Positions 18,752-32,930 of a stretch of DNA of 64,000 nucleotides are shown here, piece after piece (within the stretch, counting starts at the first letter, position 1; each line of letters starts with the position of its first letter). A model generated the notes under the pieces. That model was not told where the DNA came from, searched no databases, and saw nothing but the letters and a program-made list of their open reading frames with translations. The translations under genes were made by a program, and so were the position numbers. Source of the stretch: a bacterium (lineage in GTDB: Bacteria > Hydrothermota > Tepidihabitantia > SM23-42 > JAOAFX01); NCBI GenBank assembly GCA_036382775.1, contig DASVHD010000016.1:8323-72322 (forward strand). Reading direction: 5' to 3'.

Positions 18752-19198
18752 TCAATCATACGCGCGGCGGGTTATTTCATCGGTCACGATCGGTTGAATC
18801 AAAGCCTCCCATTCCGGAGAATCCCAGGTTTTAAGTGCAGTATGCATAATGTAATATTTTTGAGGAATCGGGTGAGTTCCAACGACAACTTCAATTCCGT
18901 ATTTATTCTTGATGAAATCGCGCAATTGGGTGATGTACGGGCACGGCGGGTAACCAACAACCATGCCCGTCGCGAAATGGATGACGCTGGCTCCGTTTTT
19001 CTTCATTTCTTCAGGCGCGTATTCAATATTGCCTCCGGGGCAACCATTGCAGGTCGCGTACCCCACGATTTCTAAATTCTGCTTCTGGTACCGGCCGAAA
19101 GCACCCTCTCTGTTTCTGGCGGCACGAAAGCATTTTCCTCCGGCGCAGGTTCGATAACGGTCACAAATTATTATGCCGATCTTCACTTTTTCTTTCAT
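18752..19198 (-). CDS. CGGC-domain protein
   Basis: KIGIIICDRYRTCAGGKCF...GYATCNGCPGG...VIHFATGM...PCPY matches the CGGC family pattern; RBS AAGGAG before the ATG at 19198. Confidence 0.6.
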   Translation of the reverse strand: MKEKVKIGIIICDRYRTCAGGKCFRAARNREGAFGRYQKQNLEIVGYATCNGCPGGNIEYAPEEMKKNGASVIHFATGMVVGYPPCPYITQLRDFIKNKYGIEVVVGTHPIPQKYYIMHTALKTWDSPEWEALIQPIVTDEITRRAYD

Positions 19199-19234: not shown

Positions 19235-20542
19235 TCACGGTATGACCGTAATTCTCCCCGGATTTTTTTTGGTTACCCTGCCAATTACCGGCGATAAGTT
19301 CGGATACCTTTCCCAGAAAAACCCCAGTTTATCCTCAGGCAATACGACTGCCAATCCACCCGATGTTTCAGAACTGAAGATGAGCTTGCCAAGCAGAGAA
19401 TTTTTATCTTTTCTCCGCACGTTATTTGAAAAAGAACCAAGGTTCATGGAAATGCCTGGTTCCTCAACTCCTTTTTTCAAAACTTCCAGAACTCCTTTGT
19501 GCACAGGTATTTGAGAAAGCCGCAGTTCAATGCCCACCCTGCTCGCCTGCGCCATCTCTACCAAATGGCCCGCCAATCCATAGCCAGTAATATCGGTGGC
19601 AGCGTGAGTTCCTGCCTGCCTCATGGCAAGCGAGGCATCACGGTTCAAAGTAGTCATTGCTTCAACAACCTGCTGTAAATCAATCCCTTGGTCTTTTTTT
19701 TCGATAACCGATTGAATGATGGTCCCGGTACCGATTGGTTTGGTGAGTACAACCACATCCCCCGGTTGGGCTCCAGTATTGGTGATTATTCTATCCGGGT
19801 GAATATAGCCAAAAACCGCGAGCCCATATCTAATCTCGTTGGCAACAAAGGTATGCCCGCCAAGGATAGTGACTCCTGCTTCTTGTGCCCTTTCTTCGCC
19901 ACCAAGCAGAATTTGCCCTAATATTTCAGGATCGCCGTCCCCTGGAAAACCGATGATATTTAGACCGAGTTTTGGATCCCCGCCCATCGCGTAGATGTCA
20001 GAAATAGAATTCGCGGCCACAATCATACCATACACTTTTGGATCCGAGATAACGGGGGTGAGCATATCAACAGTAAAGACAACTGCGGAATTCTTACTTA
20101 TCCGATAGACACCTGCGTCATCAGCAGTATTAATGCCAACCAGAAGATTTTTATCCTTGCTCCGGGGGAGAATGGAAAGTGCTTGCGCCAACTGCGCAGC
20201 CGACATCTTTGACGCTCAACCCGGGCAGGTAATGGTCTCGAGAATATTGAATATCTCTCGTTTATAGTCTTTTTTGCAAAAGAGCCGACAGTGGCAATAA
20301 CCATCCTGCTCCACCTCATCATCCAGGGTCGGACAGGGGCATACGACATCGCATTCTCGATCTACCGGATGGTGTTGTTTGCAGGGGCAATAATATTTGC
20401 CATGCTCTTTCAGGTTATTGGTCATGAGCCCGATTATCTGTTCATCCCAATCCCGATTGGGATTTATTATAAATCCTTTCCTTTCGGCAATTTTTTTTAA
20501 CCGCTGATAGTTCATTTGACAATCATTATCATGTTCAAACAT
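19235..20542 (-). CDS. selD: selenophosphate synthetase SelD with in-frame UGA (selenocysteine) codon and an N-terminal FTR-catalytic-subunit-like domain (fusion)
   Basis: The track's ORFs 20216-20542 and 19235-20206 are in the same frame, separated by TGA(20216-20218)+GCG TCA AAG. ...ITCPG-U-ASKMSAAQL aligns to E. coli SelD GAGCGCKISPKVL with U at the catalytic Cys. The N-terminal 95 aa carry CPC-x13-CPC-x11-CHC. Strong RBS AAGGAG at the 20542 ATG. Confidence 0.7.
20181..20200 (-). ncRNA. SECIS-like stem-loop 16 nt 3' of the UGA in the selD mRNA
   Basis: mRNA GCUGCGC-AGUUG-GCGCA(A)GC: 7-bp stem with a bulged A and a 5-nt G/U-rich loop. Confidence 0.45.
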
Positions 20543-20648
20543 TTTTTCTCCTTAAATTTTCCGTGTCGGCAATAAGTTTGGGTGTTCCAAACTGACAACA
20601 AACACAATTAAAGATAATGATTTGGTTTTTCAATTCGATCTCAGCCTT

Positions 20649-21899
20649 TCATCTATCGAGCGACGTATCTTTATCTGAACCTTTGCCGCTGCTGAACTTT
20701 TTCAAATCTATGGCCATTCCAAGTATTTTCTGTTTTTCATTCTCGAAGAGTTGTTTATATTCTTTCTTAACTGAGGGTGCTCTGGGTATCTTTATGCTTA
20801 AAGGATTGACGGGCACATTGTTGATATGAAGCTCAAAATGGAGATGGGGACCGGTGCTTAGACCGGTATTCCCCGAATAGGCGATCAAATCACCCATTTT
20901 GACATATTTACCTACCTTTATGCCTGGGGCAATTTTTGAAAGATGACCATACCGCGTCAAATAATTATTCGGATGCTTAATCTCAACCAGGTTGCCGTAT
21001 CCCCCTTTCCAACCCGCATAGGTGATCTTTCCATCGCCGATCGAAGATACCGGAGTGCCGATCGGTGCAACATAATCAAGACCATGGTGAGGACGCCAGA
21101 TACGCAGGATCGGATGAAAACGGCGGTTAGAAAAATAGGAGCTTATCCGGCTGTAACGGAGCGGCGACTTAAGCAGCGATTTCCTTAAAGATTCGCCTTT
21201 CAAGCTGTAAAAATCATCATAACCTTCAGGATCGTCGAAATAGATGCCCGCGTAATCACCGACATAACCCTGATAGCGAACATAAAATATCTTCGGATAG
21301 CTTACCGAATTCGAATCGACAATTTCTTTCTCAACTAAGATTTCAAAGCTATCCCCATTCTGGGTCTCAGTGGAAAAATCTATCTCCCGGGCAAAAATGT
21401 CGGCAAAATTGTAAACCAGTTCTGGTGTTTCGCCCATCTTCAGCATCGTCTCGTAGAGCGAAGAATTGATCTTACCCCAAATAATAACCATGTGCCGTTC
21501 GATATAGGGGGAATGCATGTAGCAGATTAATCCCTGGGAATCTTTCTCGACAATATATTTTTCTTTCGGACTCATTGTATAGCAAAATTTTGAAAACTCA
21601 CCATTAATCCGCACGATATAGACCGAATCAGCGGGACGGCAGTACCGAAAGGGAAATTGGGATATTTTTAATTCATCGATAATTTGCAGGGCAAGTGAAC
21701 GATCAAGGCTCGTGCGGAAGAGAGCTGCCTGAAGGTGATCATTTCTCTTGATCTGTACAAACTCAGTCGTGACAACCGGCTGATGAATTTTTCCGGTGAC
21801 TTTATCTTCTTTTCTTCTGGAACAGCCTAAAATGAGAAGCGACAATAACAAAAGAAATTCAGCAAACCGAGTAAGAAGAAGGGGTCTCATCTTATGCAC
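20649..21899 (-). CDS. M23-family peptidase lipoprotein (copy 1)
   Basis: HHGLDY...GYGNLVEIKH...GHLS...GNTGLSTGPHLHFELH LytM/M23 motifs; lipobox LILGC. Confidence 0.75.
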   Translation of the reverse strand: MHKMRPLLLTRFAEFLLLLSLLILGCSRRKEDKVTGKIHQPVVTTEFVQIKRNDHLQAALFRTSLDRSLALQIIDELKISQFPFRYCRPADSVYIVRINGEFSKFCYTMSPKEKYIVEKDSQGLICYMHSPYIERHMVIIWGKINSSLYETMLKMGETPELVYNFADIFAREIDFSTETQNGDSFEILVEKEIVDSNSVSYPKIFYVRYQGYVGDYAGIYFDDPEGYDDFYSLKGESLRKSLLKSPLRYSRISSYFSNRRFHPILRIWRPHHGLDYVAPIGTPVSSIGDGKITYAGWKGGYGNLVEIKHPNNYLTRYGHLSKIAPGIKVGKYVKMGDLIAYSGNTGLSTGPHLHFELHINNVPVNPLSIKIPRAPSVKKEYKQLFENEKQKILGMAIDLKKFSSGKGSDKDTSLDR

Positions 21900-22135
21900 T
21901 TCCTATCATCAGCACAGGGTGGTTTTCCGCACCGCTCATTTTTGCCGCAGCAGGTCTTGTCTTTATTTAAGCCACCTGCCTTTGTGCTCAGCGGGACGTG
22001 GCTCTTTGAAAATATCCGGTTCAATTCCTTGCTGCCACAATATTGGCATTTAATCTCTGCATCGCCTTGTTCCATGCCGACTAGGAATTCGTTAATCGCA
22101 GCATAGAGTGCGCACCGGTATTCATAAATCGGCAT
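21887..22135 (-). CDS. FmdB-family zinc-ribbon protein (copy 1)
   Basis: MPIYEY-R-C... CQYCGSKEL; paralog of 26978-27226; its stop overlaps the next gene's start by 13 nt. Confidence 0.6.
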   Translation of the reverse strand: MPIYEYRCALYAAINEFLVGMEQGDAEIKCQYCGSKELNRIFSKSHVPLSTKAGGLNKDKTCCGKNERCGKPPCADDRKCIR

Positions 22136-22237: not shown

Positions 22238-23407
22238 TCAGATCTTTTCAAGAGCCTGCTGTAAATCAAATATAATATCTTGGACATTTTCAATGCCAAC
22301 TGACAAGCGCACAAAACCCGGACTGATTCCGCATTTCTGTAAATCGTTTTCAGAATAGTTCGAATGGGTCATTGAGGCAGGATGCTCGATCAAAGTATCG
22401 ACATCTCCGAGACTCACCGCGAGGATGCACAATTTGACTGAATTCATGAGAACCTTCCCCGCTTCTTTCCCGCCCTTCATATCAAAACCAATCATGCCGC
22501 CGAAATCACTCATCTGTTTCCTGGCGGTCCCGTGTCCGGGATGATCTGGCAAACCAGGGTAATATACTTTTTCAACCCTGGGCTGGCTTGTGAGAAACTG
22601 AACAATTCTTTTTGCGTTTTCGCAATGACGGGTCATCCGCACGGCGAGTGTTTTCAATCCTCTTAAAATCAGCCAGGCATTGAAAGGCGATGCCGTTGCA
22701 CCCATTTCTTTAGCAGTCTCGGCCTGCATTCTCGCGATAAAATCCCCCTTGCCGACAACCATGCCGCCGACAATATCACCGTGCCCGCTCAAATACTTGG
22801 TTGCCGAATGGACCACGATGTCGGCCCCAAGTTCTATTGGTCGCTGGAGATATGGGGTCGCAAAAGTATTGTCCACACATACCGGGATATTACGGCTTCG
22901 GGCGATTTCAGAGCACCGTGCAATATCGATAATTTTGAGCGTAGGATTGACCGGCGTCTCAATAAATATCATTCGGGTGTTCGGTTTTATTGCTTTGTTT
23001 AATTCATCAATTTTCGTCGCATCAACAATAGTAACCTGAATGCCCAGGCGGGGCAGGATTGTGTTGAATAAAGCAAATGTGCCGCCGTAAATTGTATTGT
23101 CCGAGATGATGTAATCATTGCAGCCCGCGCAAGTTATGATCGTGGCTAAGATTGCGGCAAGACCAGAAGAGAATACCAAACCGGACTCGGCTGACTCCAA
23201 CCGCGCAATTTTGCCTGCCAGAATGTCAATCGTGGGGTTGCTGATCCTTGTATAGATATATCCTTCTTCTTCATTTTTAAACAAACGCGCCCCGTGATCG
23301 GCATCGCGGAAGGCAAAAGTTGATGTCTGATAGATGGGCGGCGAGATCGCACCGGTTGATTTATCCGGGTGCTGACCACCATGAACGATATCGGTCTCAA
23401 TACGCAT
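22238..23407 (-). CDS. Cys/Met-metabolism PLP-dependent enzyme, methionine gamma-lyase-like (copy 1)
   Basis: Start chosen at MRIETDIVHGG by alignment with paralog 33853-35022; ...SATKYLSGHGD... PLP-Lys region. Confidence 0.75.
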   Translation of the reverse strand: MRIETDIVHGGQHPDKSTGAISPPIYQTSTFAFRDADHGARLFKNEEEGYIYTRISNPTIDILAGKIARLESAESGLVFSSGLAAILATIITCAGCNDYIISDNTIYGGTFALFNTILPRLGIQVTIVDATKIDELNKAIKPNTRMIFIETPVNPTLKIIDIARCSEIARSRNIPVCVDNTFATPYLQRPIELGADIVVHSATKYLSGHGDIVGGMVVGKGDFIARMQAETAKEMGATASPFNAWLILRGLKTLAVRMTRHCENAKRIVQFLTSQPRVEKVYYPGLPDHPGHGTARKQMSDFGGMIGFDMKGGKEAGKVLMNSVKLCILAVSLGDVDTLIEHPASMTHSNYSENDLQKCGISPGFVRLSVGIENVQDIIFDLQQALEKI

Positions 23408-23556
23408 TATCGCCTCGGGTTCGGCAAAGATGGGAAGAAAAAGGCTTCCCCTGATCAGATGCAATGGCAAGCTTGTTTAGGACATATCCTTTGTCTTCCC
23501 CCATCTCTGATGGTTTTTTGTAATCCTGCCGGTAAACTTCGTCTTCTTTATATTCT

Positions 23557-32011: not shown

Positions 32012-32314
32012 TCAGTGCTTTTTTACCCGAAAAAACAGTTTGCAGTAACAATGGCCGTCCTTTTTTACCTCTTCATCGAGCGCGGGGCACGGGCAGAGGA
32101 CGTCATTAACCTCATCCAGTGGATCACTCTGCTTGCAGGGACAGAAGTATTTCCCATGCTCCTGATAATTCATGGTCATTAGTCCCACAACTTTTTTAAC
32201 CCGCTCATTATTCTGGTTCAGCCTGTATCCTTTGCTATTAGCAATACCTTCGATTCTTTTTAGATTTTCATCGTATTCTGTCATGCCGACAACGTCATCC
32301 CACTCATTAGCCAT
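32012..32314 (-). CDS. ferredoxin:thioredoxin reductase catalytic-subunit-like protein, standalone (copy 2)
   Basis: CPC-x13-CPC-x11-CYC motif; paralog of the N-terminal domain of the selD fusion. Confidence 0.6.
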   Translation of the reverse strand: MANEWDDVVGMTEYDENLKRIEGIANSKGYRLNQNNERVKKVVGLMTMNYQEHGKYFCPCKQSDPLDEVNDVLCPCPALDEEVKKDGHCYCKLFFRVKKH

Positions 32315-32564
32315 GTTGCCTCCCTTTTTTTAGTTTTAGAAAATCAGGAACTAAACAGGAATTTTTGGAATGTATTAAATGTAAATTGCGTAGATTGAAT
32401 AACTGGTGATGATTTTCTAAAGAGACCCGACCGGGTCGAAAAACCCGGAGAGTCATTTGTTATTTCCCCAAAAGGTAATGAGTTCTCTCATATTCAAGGC
32501 AATCATATGCGAATAATTTTTAATGTCAACATGGCAACTTGTTTTTTGCATGGTGCACCATGTG

Positions 32565-32930
32565 TCAATACATATTCCATTTCAATTTTGTTTCAAGGAT
32601 TTTGTTCTCTTTTATTTTTTCTTCACGCTGTTCAGAGTCGCATTCTAAAAGCAATGTTTTGAGCACTTCGGCATGCGCCTTTGCGTCTCTCGCCAGGTCA
32701 AGGAGAATCTTCCTAATGTGCTCGTTCGTGGTGAGCGTTGACAATTGTTCATAGAGATTTATCGCATCCGACTCCGCATTAGTACCAGCCCTGATGATTT
32801 CTTTGTCTAATTCCTCTTTGTGCAATTTATCCCATTTTGAAGGAATTTGGAATGGCATTTTTACCTCCTTCTCAAACATTTCGTCCTTAATATGTTCAAA
32901 AGACACCCAGAGCTTTTTTAACAAAATCAA
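32565..32930 (-). CDS. small ferritin-like/rubrerythrin-like protein
   Basis: AESDAINLYEQLS...EHIRKILLDLARDAKAHAEVLKTLL four-helix-bundle-like pattern; ATGA-coupled to the upstream M23 gene. Confidence 0.4.
   Translation of the reverse strand: MILLKKLWVSFEHIKDEMFEKEVKMPFQIPSKWDKLHKEELDKEIIRAGTNAESDAINLYEQLSTLTTNEHIRKILLDLARDAKAHAEVLKTLLLECDSEQREEKIKENKILETKLKWNMY

What the first reader, a model, noticed from the sequence alone, without database searches (positions are those of the whole stretch)
19235..20542. FTR-like domain fused in frame to SelD through a UGA (selenocysteine) codon
The 108-aa ORF (20216-20542) and the 323-aa SelD ORF (19235-20206) share one frame. They are separated only by TGA + GCG TCA AAG.
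- Reading through gives ...NILETITCPG-U-ASKMSAAQLAQAL.... This aligns with E. coli SelD GAGCGCKISPKVLETIL and places U exactly at the catalytic Cys17 position. That position is Sec in the selenoprotein forms of SelD.
- The 323-aa piece alone would lack this loop. It would be a SelD without its catalytic residue.
- The N-terminal ~95 aa carry CPC-x13-CPC-x11-CHC, the signature of the ferredoxin:thioredoxin reductase catalytic subunit.
- A second, standalone FTR-like paralog sits at 32012-32314.
- An FTR-like/SelD fusion is not an architecture I know of. SelD fusions to NifS-like or NADH-oxidoreductase domains are known.
- A strong RBS (AAGGAG) precedes the 20542 ATG. A hairpin with a bulged A and a G/U-rich loop lies 16 nt after the UGA, where a bacterial SECIS would be.
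- It could couple a ferredoxin-driven disulfide/selenotrisulfide reduction directly to selenophosphate synthesis.
Basis: partly seen in the sequence, partly recalled or inferred. Interest (0 to 1): 0.8.

Follow-up and report, generated by a model that had tools for sequence, protein, structure and literature searches.

The report
Ferredoxin-reductase domain fused to selenoprotein SelD
This gene encodes selenophosphate synthetase (SelD), the enzyme that activates selenium, as one protein with a UGA-encoded selenocysteine and an iron-sulfur disulfide-reductase domain fused to its front; the papers I searched do not describe this fusion, and it suggests how some anaerobes feed reducing power or selenium to the enzyme.

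Summary
Window 19235-20542 (minus strand) is a single reading frame. It contains a 108-codon FTR-like part (Pfam PF02943, above threshold), a TGA, then GCG TCA AAG and a 323-codon SelD (TIGR00476, above cut-off).

Read-through places the UGA at E. coli Cys17 and the following Lys at Lys20.

The junction is conserved:
- 38 loci (25 distinct junction peptides) carry the same in-frame TGA in an invariant C-P-G-U-A-S-K motif. They fall into at least three diverged clades: WOR-3-like, Calditrichota and others.
- One relative (P0166, 450 aa) is a single uninterrupted ORF with Cys at that position. It lies in a selB / FTR-selD / selA / tRNA-Sec cluster.
- A 6-bp hairpin begins 16-17 nt after the UGA. 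It shows compensatory changes and is weakened in the Cys form.

So this is a real selenoprotein fusion that gene callers split in two.

Four selenium-genomics papers from 2008-2026 were searched; the two that list SelD fusions name NADH-dehydrogenase-like, NifS-like and a few protist forms, and none mentions this one.

The proposed function is inferred, not shown: the [4Fe-4S]/disulfide domain would use ferredoxin electrons to reduce the adjacent CxxU loop, or selenium bound to it.

No Sec machinery lies within the 64-kb window itself.

Verdict: a new variant of a known kind, of moderate to high interest.

The parts
19235..20542 (-). Complete FTR-like/SelD selenoprotein gene: 435 codons with one in-frame UGA, plus the terminal TGA at 19235-19237
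   Evidence: One frame. SelD and FTR HMMs both pass their cut-offs. The same architecture occurs in 38 loci, and as an uninterrupted Cys ORF in P0166.
20548..20553 (-). Shine-Dalgarno-like AAGGAG, 5 nt upstream of the ATG at 20542
   Evidence: Read directly from the sequence.
20255..20506 (-). FTR catalytic-subunit-like domain, residues 13-96. Cysteines are C52-P-C54, C68-P-C70 and C83-H-C85.
   Evidence: PF02943 at 50.7 bits against gathering score 22. All six Cys are invariant in 17 sequences. They align with the CPC/CPC/C[HY]C motifs of PDB 4TPU, 7PWE and 1DJ7.
20216..20227 (-). C106-P-G-U109 motif; the Sec codon TGA is at 20216-20218
   Evidence: TGA is invariant in 21 unique junction DNAs. 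C-P-G-U is present in 25 of 25 distinct fused peptides. U aligns with E. coli Cys17.
20207..20215 (-). Codons Ala-Ser-Lys112 (Lys = E. coli Lys20), which gene callers leave as an intergenic gap
   Evidence: Variation occurs only at third codon positions: 0, 0 and 0.286 for positions 1, 2 and 3. Lys aligns with Lys20.
20181..20200 (-). SECIS-like hairpin: GCUGCGC / loop AGUUG / GCGC(A)AGC, starting 16 nt after the UGA
   Evidence: RNAfold. 93.5% of cells are paired, 3 of 6 pairs show changes on both sides, and 0 of 500 shuffles reach the observed covariation score. The stem is weakened in the Cys-form ortholog.
19238..20236 (-). SelD (selenide, water dikinase) module, residues 103-435: N-terminal loop, AIRS and AIRS_C domains
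   Evidence: TIGR00476 at 310 bits over residues 103-404. PF00586 and PF02769 both hit. PDB matches 2YYE and 3U0O.
32012..32314 (-). Standalone FTR-like paralog (100 aa). Not part of the fusion; listed for comparison.
   Evidence: PF02943 at 49.1 bits. It aligns with all six Cys and ends 10 residues after the C-x-C motif.

Best explanation
Window 19235-20542 (minus strand) is one gene for a 435-residue selenoprotein. An N-terminal FTR-like module is fused through a linker of about 10 residues to SelD. This module is of the ferredoxin:thioredoxin-reductase catalytic-subunit type and is closest to the non-photosynthetic FDR group.

Shown here:
- The in-frame UGA encodes the catalytic residue of SelD (E. 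coli Cys17).
- It is followed by a conserved SECIS-like hairpin.
- The fusion is conserved across at least three diverged clades.
- It exists as an uninterrupted Cys-containing ORF within a selB / selD / selA / tRNA-Sec cluster.

Inferred from what is established for FTR (not tested here):
- The six cysteines bind a [4Fe-4S] cluster next to a redox-active disulfide (C54/C85).
- Reduced ferredoxin delivers electrons one at a time.
- The disulfide/dithiol then reduces the neighbouring C106-P-G-U109 loop of SelD, about 20 residues downstream in the same chain or in the partner subunit.
- This either keeps the selenenylsulfide open or reductively releases selenium that has been loaded onto it (a perselenide or selenotrisulfide type species) as enzyme-bound selenide.
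- That selenide is phosphorylated by ATP to give selenophosphate.

In effect this would be the ferredoxin-dependent, anaerobic counterpart of the NAD(P)H-dependent Ndh-SelD fusion.
For: One polypeptide:
- The frame is continuous.
- Codon-position periodicity of variation runs through the UGA. The A-S-K codons between the UGA and the annotated ATG vary only at third positions.
- The 'start' codon of the 323-aa ORF is CTC, CTG, TTA or GTT in 7 of 21 distinct junctions; CTC (3 of them) is not a start codon under the bacterial code.
- P0166 is a 450-aa uninterrupted FTR-SelD with Cys at the Sec position and all three Pfam domains.

Sec:
- TGA is invariant in 38 loci.
- U aligns with Cys17 and K with Lys20.
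- Non-fused WOR-3 SelDs carry the same UGA behind a short 'M..KKKGILATVKCAG' N-terminus.
- The hairpin shows compensatory changes and is degraded in the Cys form.
- UGA is otherwise an ordinary stop in this window, for example at the end of SelD and of the M23 peptidase gene.

Sec-pathway role:
- L167 carries selB / FTR-selD / selA / tRNA-Sec.
- L175 carries selB next to the Sec-form fusion.

FTR-like module:
- PF02943 is above threshold.
- All six Cys are invariant.
- The best PDB relatives are 4TPU (E 2.6e-15) and 7PWE; classical FTRc 1DJ7 scores 1.7e-4.

Redox coupling:
- C-P-G-U is invariant in all 25 distinct fused forms.
- The linker is very short.
- The known Ndh and NifS fusions also sit N-terminal to SelD, and the papers report CxxC or CxxU motifs in them (PMC2398784; PMC4561486).
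- The in vivo selenium donor for SelD is described as incompletely elucidated (PMC13188914).
Against: - No biochemical data exist for this protein or any member of the fusion family. Cluster binding, ferredoxin dependence and the target of the disulfide are all inferred.
- The AlphaFold model of P0166 has pLDDT below 50 across the junction (residues 102-135), so it gives no geometry for an intramolecular relay.
- CxxU is not specific to the fusion. Non-fused WOR-3 SelDs have CAGU, and roughly half of the non-fused Sec-SelDs listed also have Cys at position -3 by my own count.
- No selA, selB or tRNA-Sec lies in the 64-kb window.
- No ferredoxin gene is consistently adjacent.
- One fused variant (P0161) has CPT in place of the first CPC, so it lacks the putative interchange cysteine.
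Confidence: 0.6

Rival explanations
1. These are two separate proteins. The FTR-like ORF ends at an ordinary UGA stop, and a truncated SelD starts independently at ATG 20206. The adjacency is operon organisation, not fusion.
For: Gene callers and NCBI annotate it this way. HEX7319269.1 is named a 'ferredoxin-thioredoxin reductase catalytic domain-containing protein', and the database holds many 318-323-aa 'SelD' entries. UGA is a normal stop elsewhere in the window.
Against: - The 323-aa product would lack Sec/Cys17 and Lys20.
- A-S-K between the UGA and the ATG is under protein-level constraint.
- The ATG is replaced by other codons in 7 of 21 junctions, including CTC, which is not a start codon.
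- The FTR ORFs all end with the SelD beta-1/loop sequence ILETITCPG, which standalone FTR-likes lack.
- A Cys ortholog is a single ORF.
- A covarying hairpin follows the UGA.
Confidence: 0.04
2. It is a real fusion, but the FTR-like domain is a redox switch rather than a catalytic partner. It would open the C106-U109 selenenylsulfide, activating SelD, only when the ferredoxin pool is reduced. This is analogous to FTR/thioredoxin activation of chloroplast enzymes.
For: The anatomical evidence is the same as for the main explanation. Classical FTR is a regulatory disulfide reductase (established knowledge). The loci come from anoxic-sediment metagenomes such as SMTZ and WOR contigs.
Against: Sequence data cannot distinguish regulation from catalysis. 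A covalently attached 1:1 reductase is an unusual design for a signalling relay.
Confidence: 0.15
3. It is a real fusion, but the FTR-like domain acts on an external selenium compound such as selenite-derived selenotrisulfide, elemental Se or polyselenide, or on a carrier protein. It would make free selenide for SelD and would not touch the CxxU loop.
For: FTR-like enzymes reduce intermolecular disulfides (established for FTR). The in vivo selenium donor of SelD is described as incompletely elucidated (PMC13188914). A NifU_N gene lies directly upstream in some fused loci, L001 and L002.
Against: The linker of about 10 residues and the invariant CPGU next to the domain favour an intramolecular target. 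No conserved carrier gene accompanies the fusion across loci.
Confidence: 0.15
4. The UGA acts as a selenium-dependent switch. When Sec-tRNA is scarce, translation ends at the UGA and releases a free 108-aa FTR-like protein with its own function. When selenium is available, the full fusion is made.
For: Termination competes with Sec insertion at bacterial UGA codons (general knowledge). Standalone FTR-like paralogs of similar size exist in the same genome, at 32012-32314.
Against: The Cys form P0166 cannot produce the short product, yet keeps the fusion. This reading adds to the main explanation rather than replacing it.
Confidence: 0.06

Closest known systems
Ndh-SelD fusion: an NADH-dehydrogenase-like (pyridine-nucleotide disulfide oxidoreductase) domain N-terminal to SelD (Zhang et al. 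2008, PMC2398784; Mariotti et al. 2015, PMC4561486)
   Same: A redox domain is fused to the N-terminus of SelD, directly before the catalytic loop. That loop carries a second cysteine three residues upstream (CxxC). The fusion is presumed to retain selenophosphate synthesis.
   Different: The Ndh domain is a flavoprotein using NAD(P)H, and these fusions are always the Cys form and mostly aquatic or aerobic. Here the domain is a small [4Fe-4S]/disulfide FTR-like module presumed to use ferredoxin. The catalytic residue is Sec in 25 of 26 distinct forms, and the hosts are anaerobic-sediment lineages.
NifS-SelD fusion of Geobacter sp. FRC-32 (PMC2398784; PMC4561486)
   Same: It is the only previously reported SelD fusion that is itself a selenoprotein. 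It has a CxxU motif, and the extra domain is N-terminal.
   Different: NifS is a PLP-dependent Cys/Sec desulfurase that delivers selenium. It is not an Fe-S disulfide reductase.
FDR, the FTR-like ferredoxin:disulfide reductase of Methanosarcina acetivorans (PDB 4TPU), and 7PWE
   Same: These are the best solved-structure matches to the N-terminal domain (E 2.6e-15 and 1.7e-13). They share the same CPC...CPC...CxC arrangement. From my own knowledge, not tested here, FDR has no variable subunit.
   Different: FDR carries a C-terminal rubredoxin domain, and its substrate is an external disulfide. Here the C-terminal partner is SelD.
Classical ferredoxin:thioredoxin reductase catalytic subunit (FTRc, PDB 1DJ7)
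   Same: It belongs to Pfam family PF02943. The six cysteines and the His of CHC are present in clade 1.
   Different: The match is much weaker (E 1.7e-4). No variable-subunit gene was seen. Clades 2 and 3 have CEC in place of CHC. The classical substrate is thioredoxin.
FtrB family double-selenoprotein (NCBIfam NF041072; FTR selenoproteins of the GOS metagenome, PMC2398784)
   Same: It is an FTR-like fold that is linked to selenium biology.
   Different: In that family Sec replaces the redox-active cysteines inside the FTR domain. Here the FTR cysteines are all Cys and the Sec belongs to SelD. The score is 34.9 bits against a cut-off of 160, so this protein is not a member.

Membership tests
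SelD / selenophosphate synthetase (TIGR00476) | Whole-protein HMM score above the curated cut-off | tested here: met
   310 bits against a cut-off of 125, over residues 103-404. The E. coli-type model NF002098 scores 242.8, below its cut-off of 299.
SelD / selenophosphate synthetase (TIGR00476) | Catalytic Sec/Cys (E. coli Cys17) and Lys20 in the N-terminal glycine-rich loop | tested here: met
   Met only in the read-through product: U109 and K112 align with Cys17 and Lys20 of 3U0O. The 323-aa ORF alone lacks both.
SelD / selenophosphate synthetase (TIGR00476) | AIRS N- and C-terminal domains | tested here: met
   PF00586 at 81.2 bits and PF02769 at 62.4 bits.
SelD / selenophosphate synthetase (TIGR00476) | Genomic association with selenium-utilisation genes (selA, selB, tRNA-Sec or ybbB) | tested here: inconclusive
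   Not present in the 64-kb window. Present next to orthologous fusions: L167 has selB / fusion / selA / tRNA-Sec, and L175 has selB / fusion.
SelD / selenophosphate synthetase (TIGR00476) | ATP- and selenide-dependent selenophosphate synthesis | not testable with these tools
   Requires an enzyme assay.
Bacterial selenoprotein gene (UGA plus bSECIS) | In-frame UGA at a position that is Cys in homologs | tested here: met
   The position is Cys in P0166 and in L030, and is Cys17 in E. coli.
Bacterial selenoprotein gene (UGA plus bSECIS) | Stem-loop shortly downstream of the UGA, with G/U in the apical loop, maintained by covariation | tested here: met
   The stem covers nt 20-25 and 31-36 with loop AGUUR. 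93.5% of cells are paired, 3 pairs show double changes, and 0 of 500 shuffles reach the score. Caveat: the region is also coding, and the sequences are related to each other.
Bacterial selenoprotein gene (UGA plus bSECIS) | Sec actually inserted, requiring SelB, SelA and tRNA-Sec in the same genome | not tested
   Only 64 kb of the genome was available, and none of these genes lies in it.
FTR catalytic subunit family (Pfam PF02943 FeThRed_B) | HMM score above the gathering threshold | tested here: met
   50.7 bits against 22.
FTR catalytic subunit family (Pfam PF02943 FeThRed_B) | Six cysteines in the CPC...CPC...CHC arrangement (four cluster ligands plus a redox-active pair) | tested here: met
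   C52, C54, C68, C70, C83 and C85 are invariant in 17 sequences. They align with 4TPU, 7PWE and 1DJ7. His is kept in clade 1 and is Glu in clades 2 and 3.
FTR catalytic subunit family (Pfam PF02943 FeThRed_B) | [4Fe-4S] cluster and ferredoxin-dependent disulfide reduction | not testable with these tools
   Requires spectroscopy and an activity assay.
Classical heterodimeric FTR (catalytic plus variable subunit, thioredoxin as substrate) | Partner variable subunit and a thioredoxin substrate | not tested
   The genes beside the fusion that were scanned or carry precomputed Pfam hits (M23 peptidase, CGGC protein, an unassigned 149-aa ORF) show no FeThRed_A hit. The rest of the window was not scanned. 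The domain is closer to single-subunit FDR-type proteins. I do not file it as classical FTR.
FtrB family double-selenoprotein (NF041072) | Score above the cut-off, with Sec replacing the redox-active cysteines | tested here: not met
   34.9 bits against a cut-off of 160. The FTR cysteines are all encoded as Cys.

The most novel reading that the evidence does not exclude
The FTR-like module is a dedicated, ferredoxin-driven [4Fe-4S] selenium reductase built into SelD. It would convert selenium bound to the CPGU loop, or an incoming selenotrisulfide or perselenide, into enzyme-held selenide at the ATP site. If so, these anaerobes would solve the unresolved question of the physiological selenium donor and reductant for selenophosphate synthetase without free selenide, thioredoxin or glutathione. 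A further possibility is that the fusion arose more than once, because the FTR-domain and SelD trees disagree.
Probability: 0.3. Interest if true: 0.75.

Novelty: new variant of a known kind. Interest (0 to 1): 0.62.

Why it matters
A 2026 review states that the in vivo form of selenium used by SelD, and the system that delivers it, remain incompletely elucidated (PMC13188914).

Domain fusions give natural hints about functional partners. The two known prokaryotic fusions, Ndh and NifS, already point to a need for a reductant or a selenium donor at the N-terminal loop. A third fusion, conserved across phylum-level lineages, links a ferredoxin-type Fe-S disulfide reductase to the same loop. That supports the idea that the CxxU/CxxC loop cycles through an oxidised or selenium-loaded state that must be reduced.

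It also provides a compact single-chain system for testing this in vitro, and the natural Cys variant P0166 could be expressed without Sec machinery.

There is a practical point too. Current pipelines split all of these genes into an 'FTR catalytic domain protein' and a truncated 'SelD'. Selenoproteome and SelD surveys of WOR-3, Calditrichota and related lineages therefore mis-annotate them.

Tried and rejected
- The first genome-contig scan, using the single read-through protein, found nothing.
The exact 108-aa ORF was used instead.
- Rfam gave no SECIS or other match at gathering thresholds over the window. A permissive scan of 20100-20300 gave only chance hits.
- ARAGORN found no tRNA in the window. 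tblastn with SelB and SelA from L167 found nothing in the window.
- A scan for other in-frame-TGA split ORFs in the window gave no convincing second selenoprotein.
- The MAFFT alignment of P0166 with many SelD fragments misplaced the FTR fragments. A smaller alignment fixed the core but misplaced the tails.
- The resulting AlphaFold model is confident for the FTR core and for AIRS_C, but below 50 pLDDT at the junction and low over much of the N-terminal SelD domain. I drew no conclusion about domain geometry and ran no fold search.
- NJ trees were built to decide between one and several fusion events. The SelD tree suggests one clade with secondary loss. The FTR tree separates clade 1 from clades 2 and 3. 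There is no bootstrap support and the domain is short, so the question is left unresolved.
- Literature searches for FDR/FTR-like enzymes returned nothing usable. The 2022 SelD family review (Manta et al.) is not held, so an earlier mention of this fusion there cannot be excluded.
- An alternative genetic code with UGA as a sense codon was rejected. SelD itself and neighbouring genes end in TGA.
- Sequencing error or a pseudogene was rejected, because the same TGA appears in 38 fetched loci from many different samples and assemblies.
Full report
OBSERVATION

On the minus strand, an ATG at 20542 is preceded by AAGGAG at 20548-20553. It opens a 108-codon ORF that ends in TGA at 20216-20218. After GCG TCA AAG, an ATG at 20206 opens a 323-codon ORF that ends at 19235. 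Everything is in one frame.

The read-through product, with U written as C, gives these scores:
- TIGR00476 (SelD): 310 bits against a cut-off of 125. The match begins at residue 103, upstream of the UGA.
- PF00586 and PF02769: both above threshold.
- PF02943 (FTR catalytic chain): 50.7 bits against a gathering score of 22, over residues 13-96.

Against solved structures, 'pGCaSK' aligns with E. coli SelD 3U0O 'aGCgCK' starting at residue 15. So U109 corresponds to Cys17 and K112 to Lys20. A. aeolicus SelD 2YYE aligns in the same way. The 323-aa ORF alone would therefore lack both essential loop residues.

The cysteine pattern is CPC-x13-CPC-x12-CHC.

The second FTR-like gene at 32012-32314 (minus strand) is real, with PF02943 at 49.1 bits.

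IS IT ONE PROTEIN?

All 120 best database relatives of the read-through protein are 263-343-aa entries. Most are 311-326-aa 'SelD' ORFs that start after the UGA, and the named ones come from WOR-3 and Stahlbacteria MAGs.

Their genomic contexts fall into two groups:
- In relatives with 78% and 69% identical SelD, a FeThRed_B ORF sits upstream, separated by exactly 9 nt after its stop. The in-frame junction reads ETITCPG*ASKMSAAQLAQAL.
- More distant WOR-3 genomes, such as GCA_001303785, have an ordinary Sec-SelD with a short N-terminus, MSENKKKGILATVKCAG*ASK, and no fused FTR.

Thirteen database clusters of 108-112-aa 'FTR' proteins all end in ...IL[EK]TITCPG. That is the beta-1/loop sequence of SelD. 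Standalone FTR-likes stop about 10 residues after the last CxC.

A metagenome scan and an exhaustive representative search added two further, much more diverged groups:
- Clade 2: ...CECH[VIL]FF...GLLSTVTCPG*ASK.SKAQLALAL (L121, L127, L146, L155, L173, L175).
- Clade 3: ...CECGLFID...GLLATILCPG (P0159, P0170, P0166).

In total, 38 fetched loci (25 distinct junction peptides) carry the Sec-type fusion. All have TGA and all have C-P-G-U.

P0166 is decisive. It is a 450-aa uninterrupted ORF reading ...ILCPGCASKLNRAQL..., and it carries PF02943, PF00586 and PF02769.

Nucleotide variation among 21 distinct junctions keeps its codon-position periodicity straight through the UGA:
- Upstream of the UGA: 0.11, 0.04 and 0.40 for codon positions 1, 2 and 3.
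- The A-S-K codons: 0, 0 and 0.29.
- Downstream: 0.19, 0.12 and 0.35.
In 7 of the 21, the supposed SelD start codon is CTC, CTG, TTA or GTT.

UGA is an ordinary stop for neighbouring genes. An alternative genetic code is therefore excluded.

SEC DECODING

A hairpin (CUGCGC / AGUUR / GCGCAG) starts 16-17 nt after the UGA.

On 23 distinct sequences, 93.5% of cells pair and three of the six pairs show changes on both sides. Examples are C-G to A-U, U-A to A-U and G-C to A-U. None of 500 shuffles reaches the observed covariation score, and slid registers collapse. L173 and L175 add G-C and A-U or G-U outer pairs.

In the single Cys-type gene (L167) the 3' arm reads AUGCUU. The loop-closing pair is lost and RNAfold no longer forms the stem. 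This is what is expected if the stem serves Sec insertion, but it rests on one sequence.

Rfam has no model that matches.

Sec machinery is absent from the 64-kb window, but it lies next to orthologous fusions:
- L167: selB, FTR-selD, selA and tRNA-Sec.
- L175: selB followed by the Sec-type fusion.

WHAT THE N-TERMINAL DOMAIN IS

All six cysteines are invariant in fused and standalone relatives.

A profile of the family was compared with solved structures:
- 4TPU, the FTR-like protein of M. acetivorans that also carries a rubredoxin domain: E 2.6e-15.
- 7PWE: E 1.7e-13.
- Classical FTR catalytic subunits such as 1DJ7: E 1.7e-4.
The CPC/CPC/CxC motifs are in register in all of these. I therefore place the domain in PF02943, in its non-photosynthetic branch, and not in classical heterodimeric FTR.

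It is also not the FtrB double-selenoprotein family (34.9 bits against a cut-off of 160).

The distance from the last FTR cysteine (C85) to C106 is 21 residues, of which about 10 form the linker.

MECHANISM (INFERRED)

From what is established for FTR, four cysteines hold a [4Fe-4S] cluster beside a redox-active disulfide. That disulfide is reduced by two successive one-electron transfers from ferredoxin.

The nearest plausible substrate is the invariant C106-P-G-U109 motif of the SelD loop. Proline at this position is specific to the fused forms. Non-fused relatives have CAG or CGG.

I propose that the module keeps the selenenylsulfide reduced, or that it reductively releases selenium loaded onto the loop. 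This would make it a ferredoxin-dependent analogue of the Ndh-SelD fusion. The loci come largely from anoxic sediments (contig names).

Regulatory and external-substrate versions of this idea cannot be separated by sequence. The AlphaFold model of P0166 is confident for the FTR core (pLDDT 83-93) and for AIRS_C. It is below 50 across residues 102-135, so it says nothing about geometry.

EVOLUTION

An NJ tree of the SelD parts places all fused forms and the non-fused WOR-3 SelDs in one clade. The non-fused group is nested within clade 1, which suggests secondary loss of the domain.

An NJ tree of the FTR parts separates clade 1 from clades 2 and 3. Clade 1 is sister to standalone FTR-likes, including the window paralog.

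The trees have no support values and the domain is short. Whether the fusion arose once or twice is unresolved.

COMPARISON WITH WHAT IS KNOWN

Zhang et al. 2008 (PMC2398784) and Mariotti et al. 2015 (PMC4561486) list these SelD fusions:
- NADH-dehydrogenase-like: always Cys, with a CxxC motif.
- NifS-like: Geobacter FRC-32 is the single Sec-containing case, with CxxU.
- A methyltransferase fusion in Naegleria.
- An uncharacterised extension in Plasmodium.

A term search of Mariotti's supplements for 'ferredoxin' and 'FTR' found nothing relevant. The passages returned by term searches of the 2022 and 2026 reviews do not mention an FTR-SelD fusion. NCBIfam has no model for it, and NCBI annotates the two halves separately.

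VERDICT

The redox-relay function is a reasoned inference, at about 0.5-0.6 when its catalytic and regulatory forms are taken together.

It is a new domain architecture of a known enzyme, so a new variant of a known kind. It bears directly on how selenium and reducing equivalents reach SelD. Interest 0.62.

Noticed in passing
P0343-P0413; sequences shown: A separate, widespread group of Cys-type SelDs (396-624 aa) carries an N-terminal cysteine-rich extension of about 50 residues...LGHCxCxPKxxCPCxxF...CxCAGE. This is three CxC pairs, like a compressed version of the FTR motif. Many also have a C-terminal AhpD/CMD domain (PF02627). Pfam and NCBIfam do not recognise the N-terminal extension. It may be another undescribed redox-module fusion to SelD.
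   Followed up: partly
window 18752-19198 (-): A CGGC-domain protein (PF08821, 106.8 bits) starts 36 nt after the SelD stop codon, on the same strand. This pairing is kept in contigs that carry the identical FTR ORF (L170-L172), but not in L001 or L003.
   Followed up: partly
window 32012-32930 (-): The standalone FTR-like paralog (100 aa) lies about 250 nt downstream of a rubrerythrin-like gene (32565-32930, PF02915 at 32 bits) on the same strand. The substrate of this second FTR-like protein is unknown.
   Followed up: no
L005/L006 5088-6957 (WOR-3 SM23_42, GCA_001303785): In a WOR-3 genome whose SelD is not fused, a standalone FeThRed_B gene lies about 1.1 kb downstream of selD. It overlaps the start of an HGD-D (2-hydroxyglutaryl-CoA dehydratase D-component-like) gene, which is followed by a BcrAD_BadFG activator-like gene.
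   Followed up: no
L001 2172-2639 and L002 122-589: A NifU_N (IscU-like) gene ends 22 nt upstream of the fused FTR-selD gene in one sub-clade. It is not present at this position in the window.
   Followed up: no
P0089: A database SelD entry has Trp at the Sec position (GILASVKCAGWASK). The likeliest reason is that the source pipeline translated that contig with a UGA=Trp code. This is another way Sec-SelDs get mis-recorded.
   Followed up: no
P0161: One fused-type FTR ORF ending in ...DDCPG has CPT in place of the first CPC. It therefore lacks the cysteine that corresponds to the interchange thiol of FTR. It could be an inactive variant or a sequencing error.
   Followed up: no
window 21887-22135 (-) and 22238-23470 (-): Two genes lie upstream of the fusion on the same strand, beyond an M23 peptidase gene. 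One is a Cys/Met-metabolism PLP enzyme (PF01053, 495.6 bits). The other is an FmdB-type zinc-ribbon protein (33.2 bits, just under the Pfam cut-off of 34.4) whose first CxxC reads C-A-L-Y. FmdB-family proteins are a known selenoprotein family, but this copy has no in-frame UGA.
   Followed up: no
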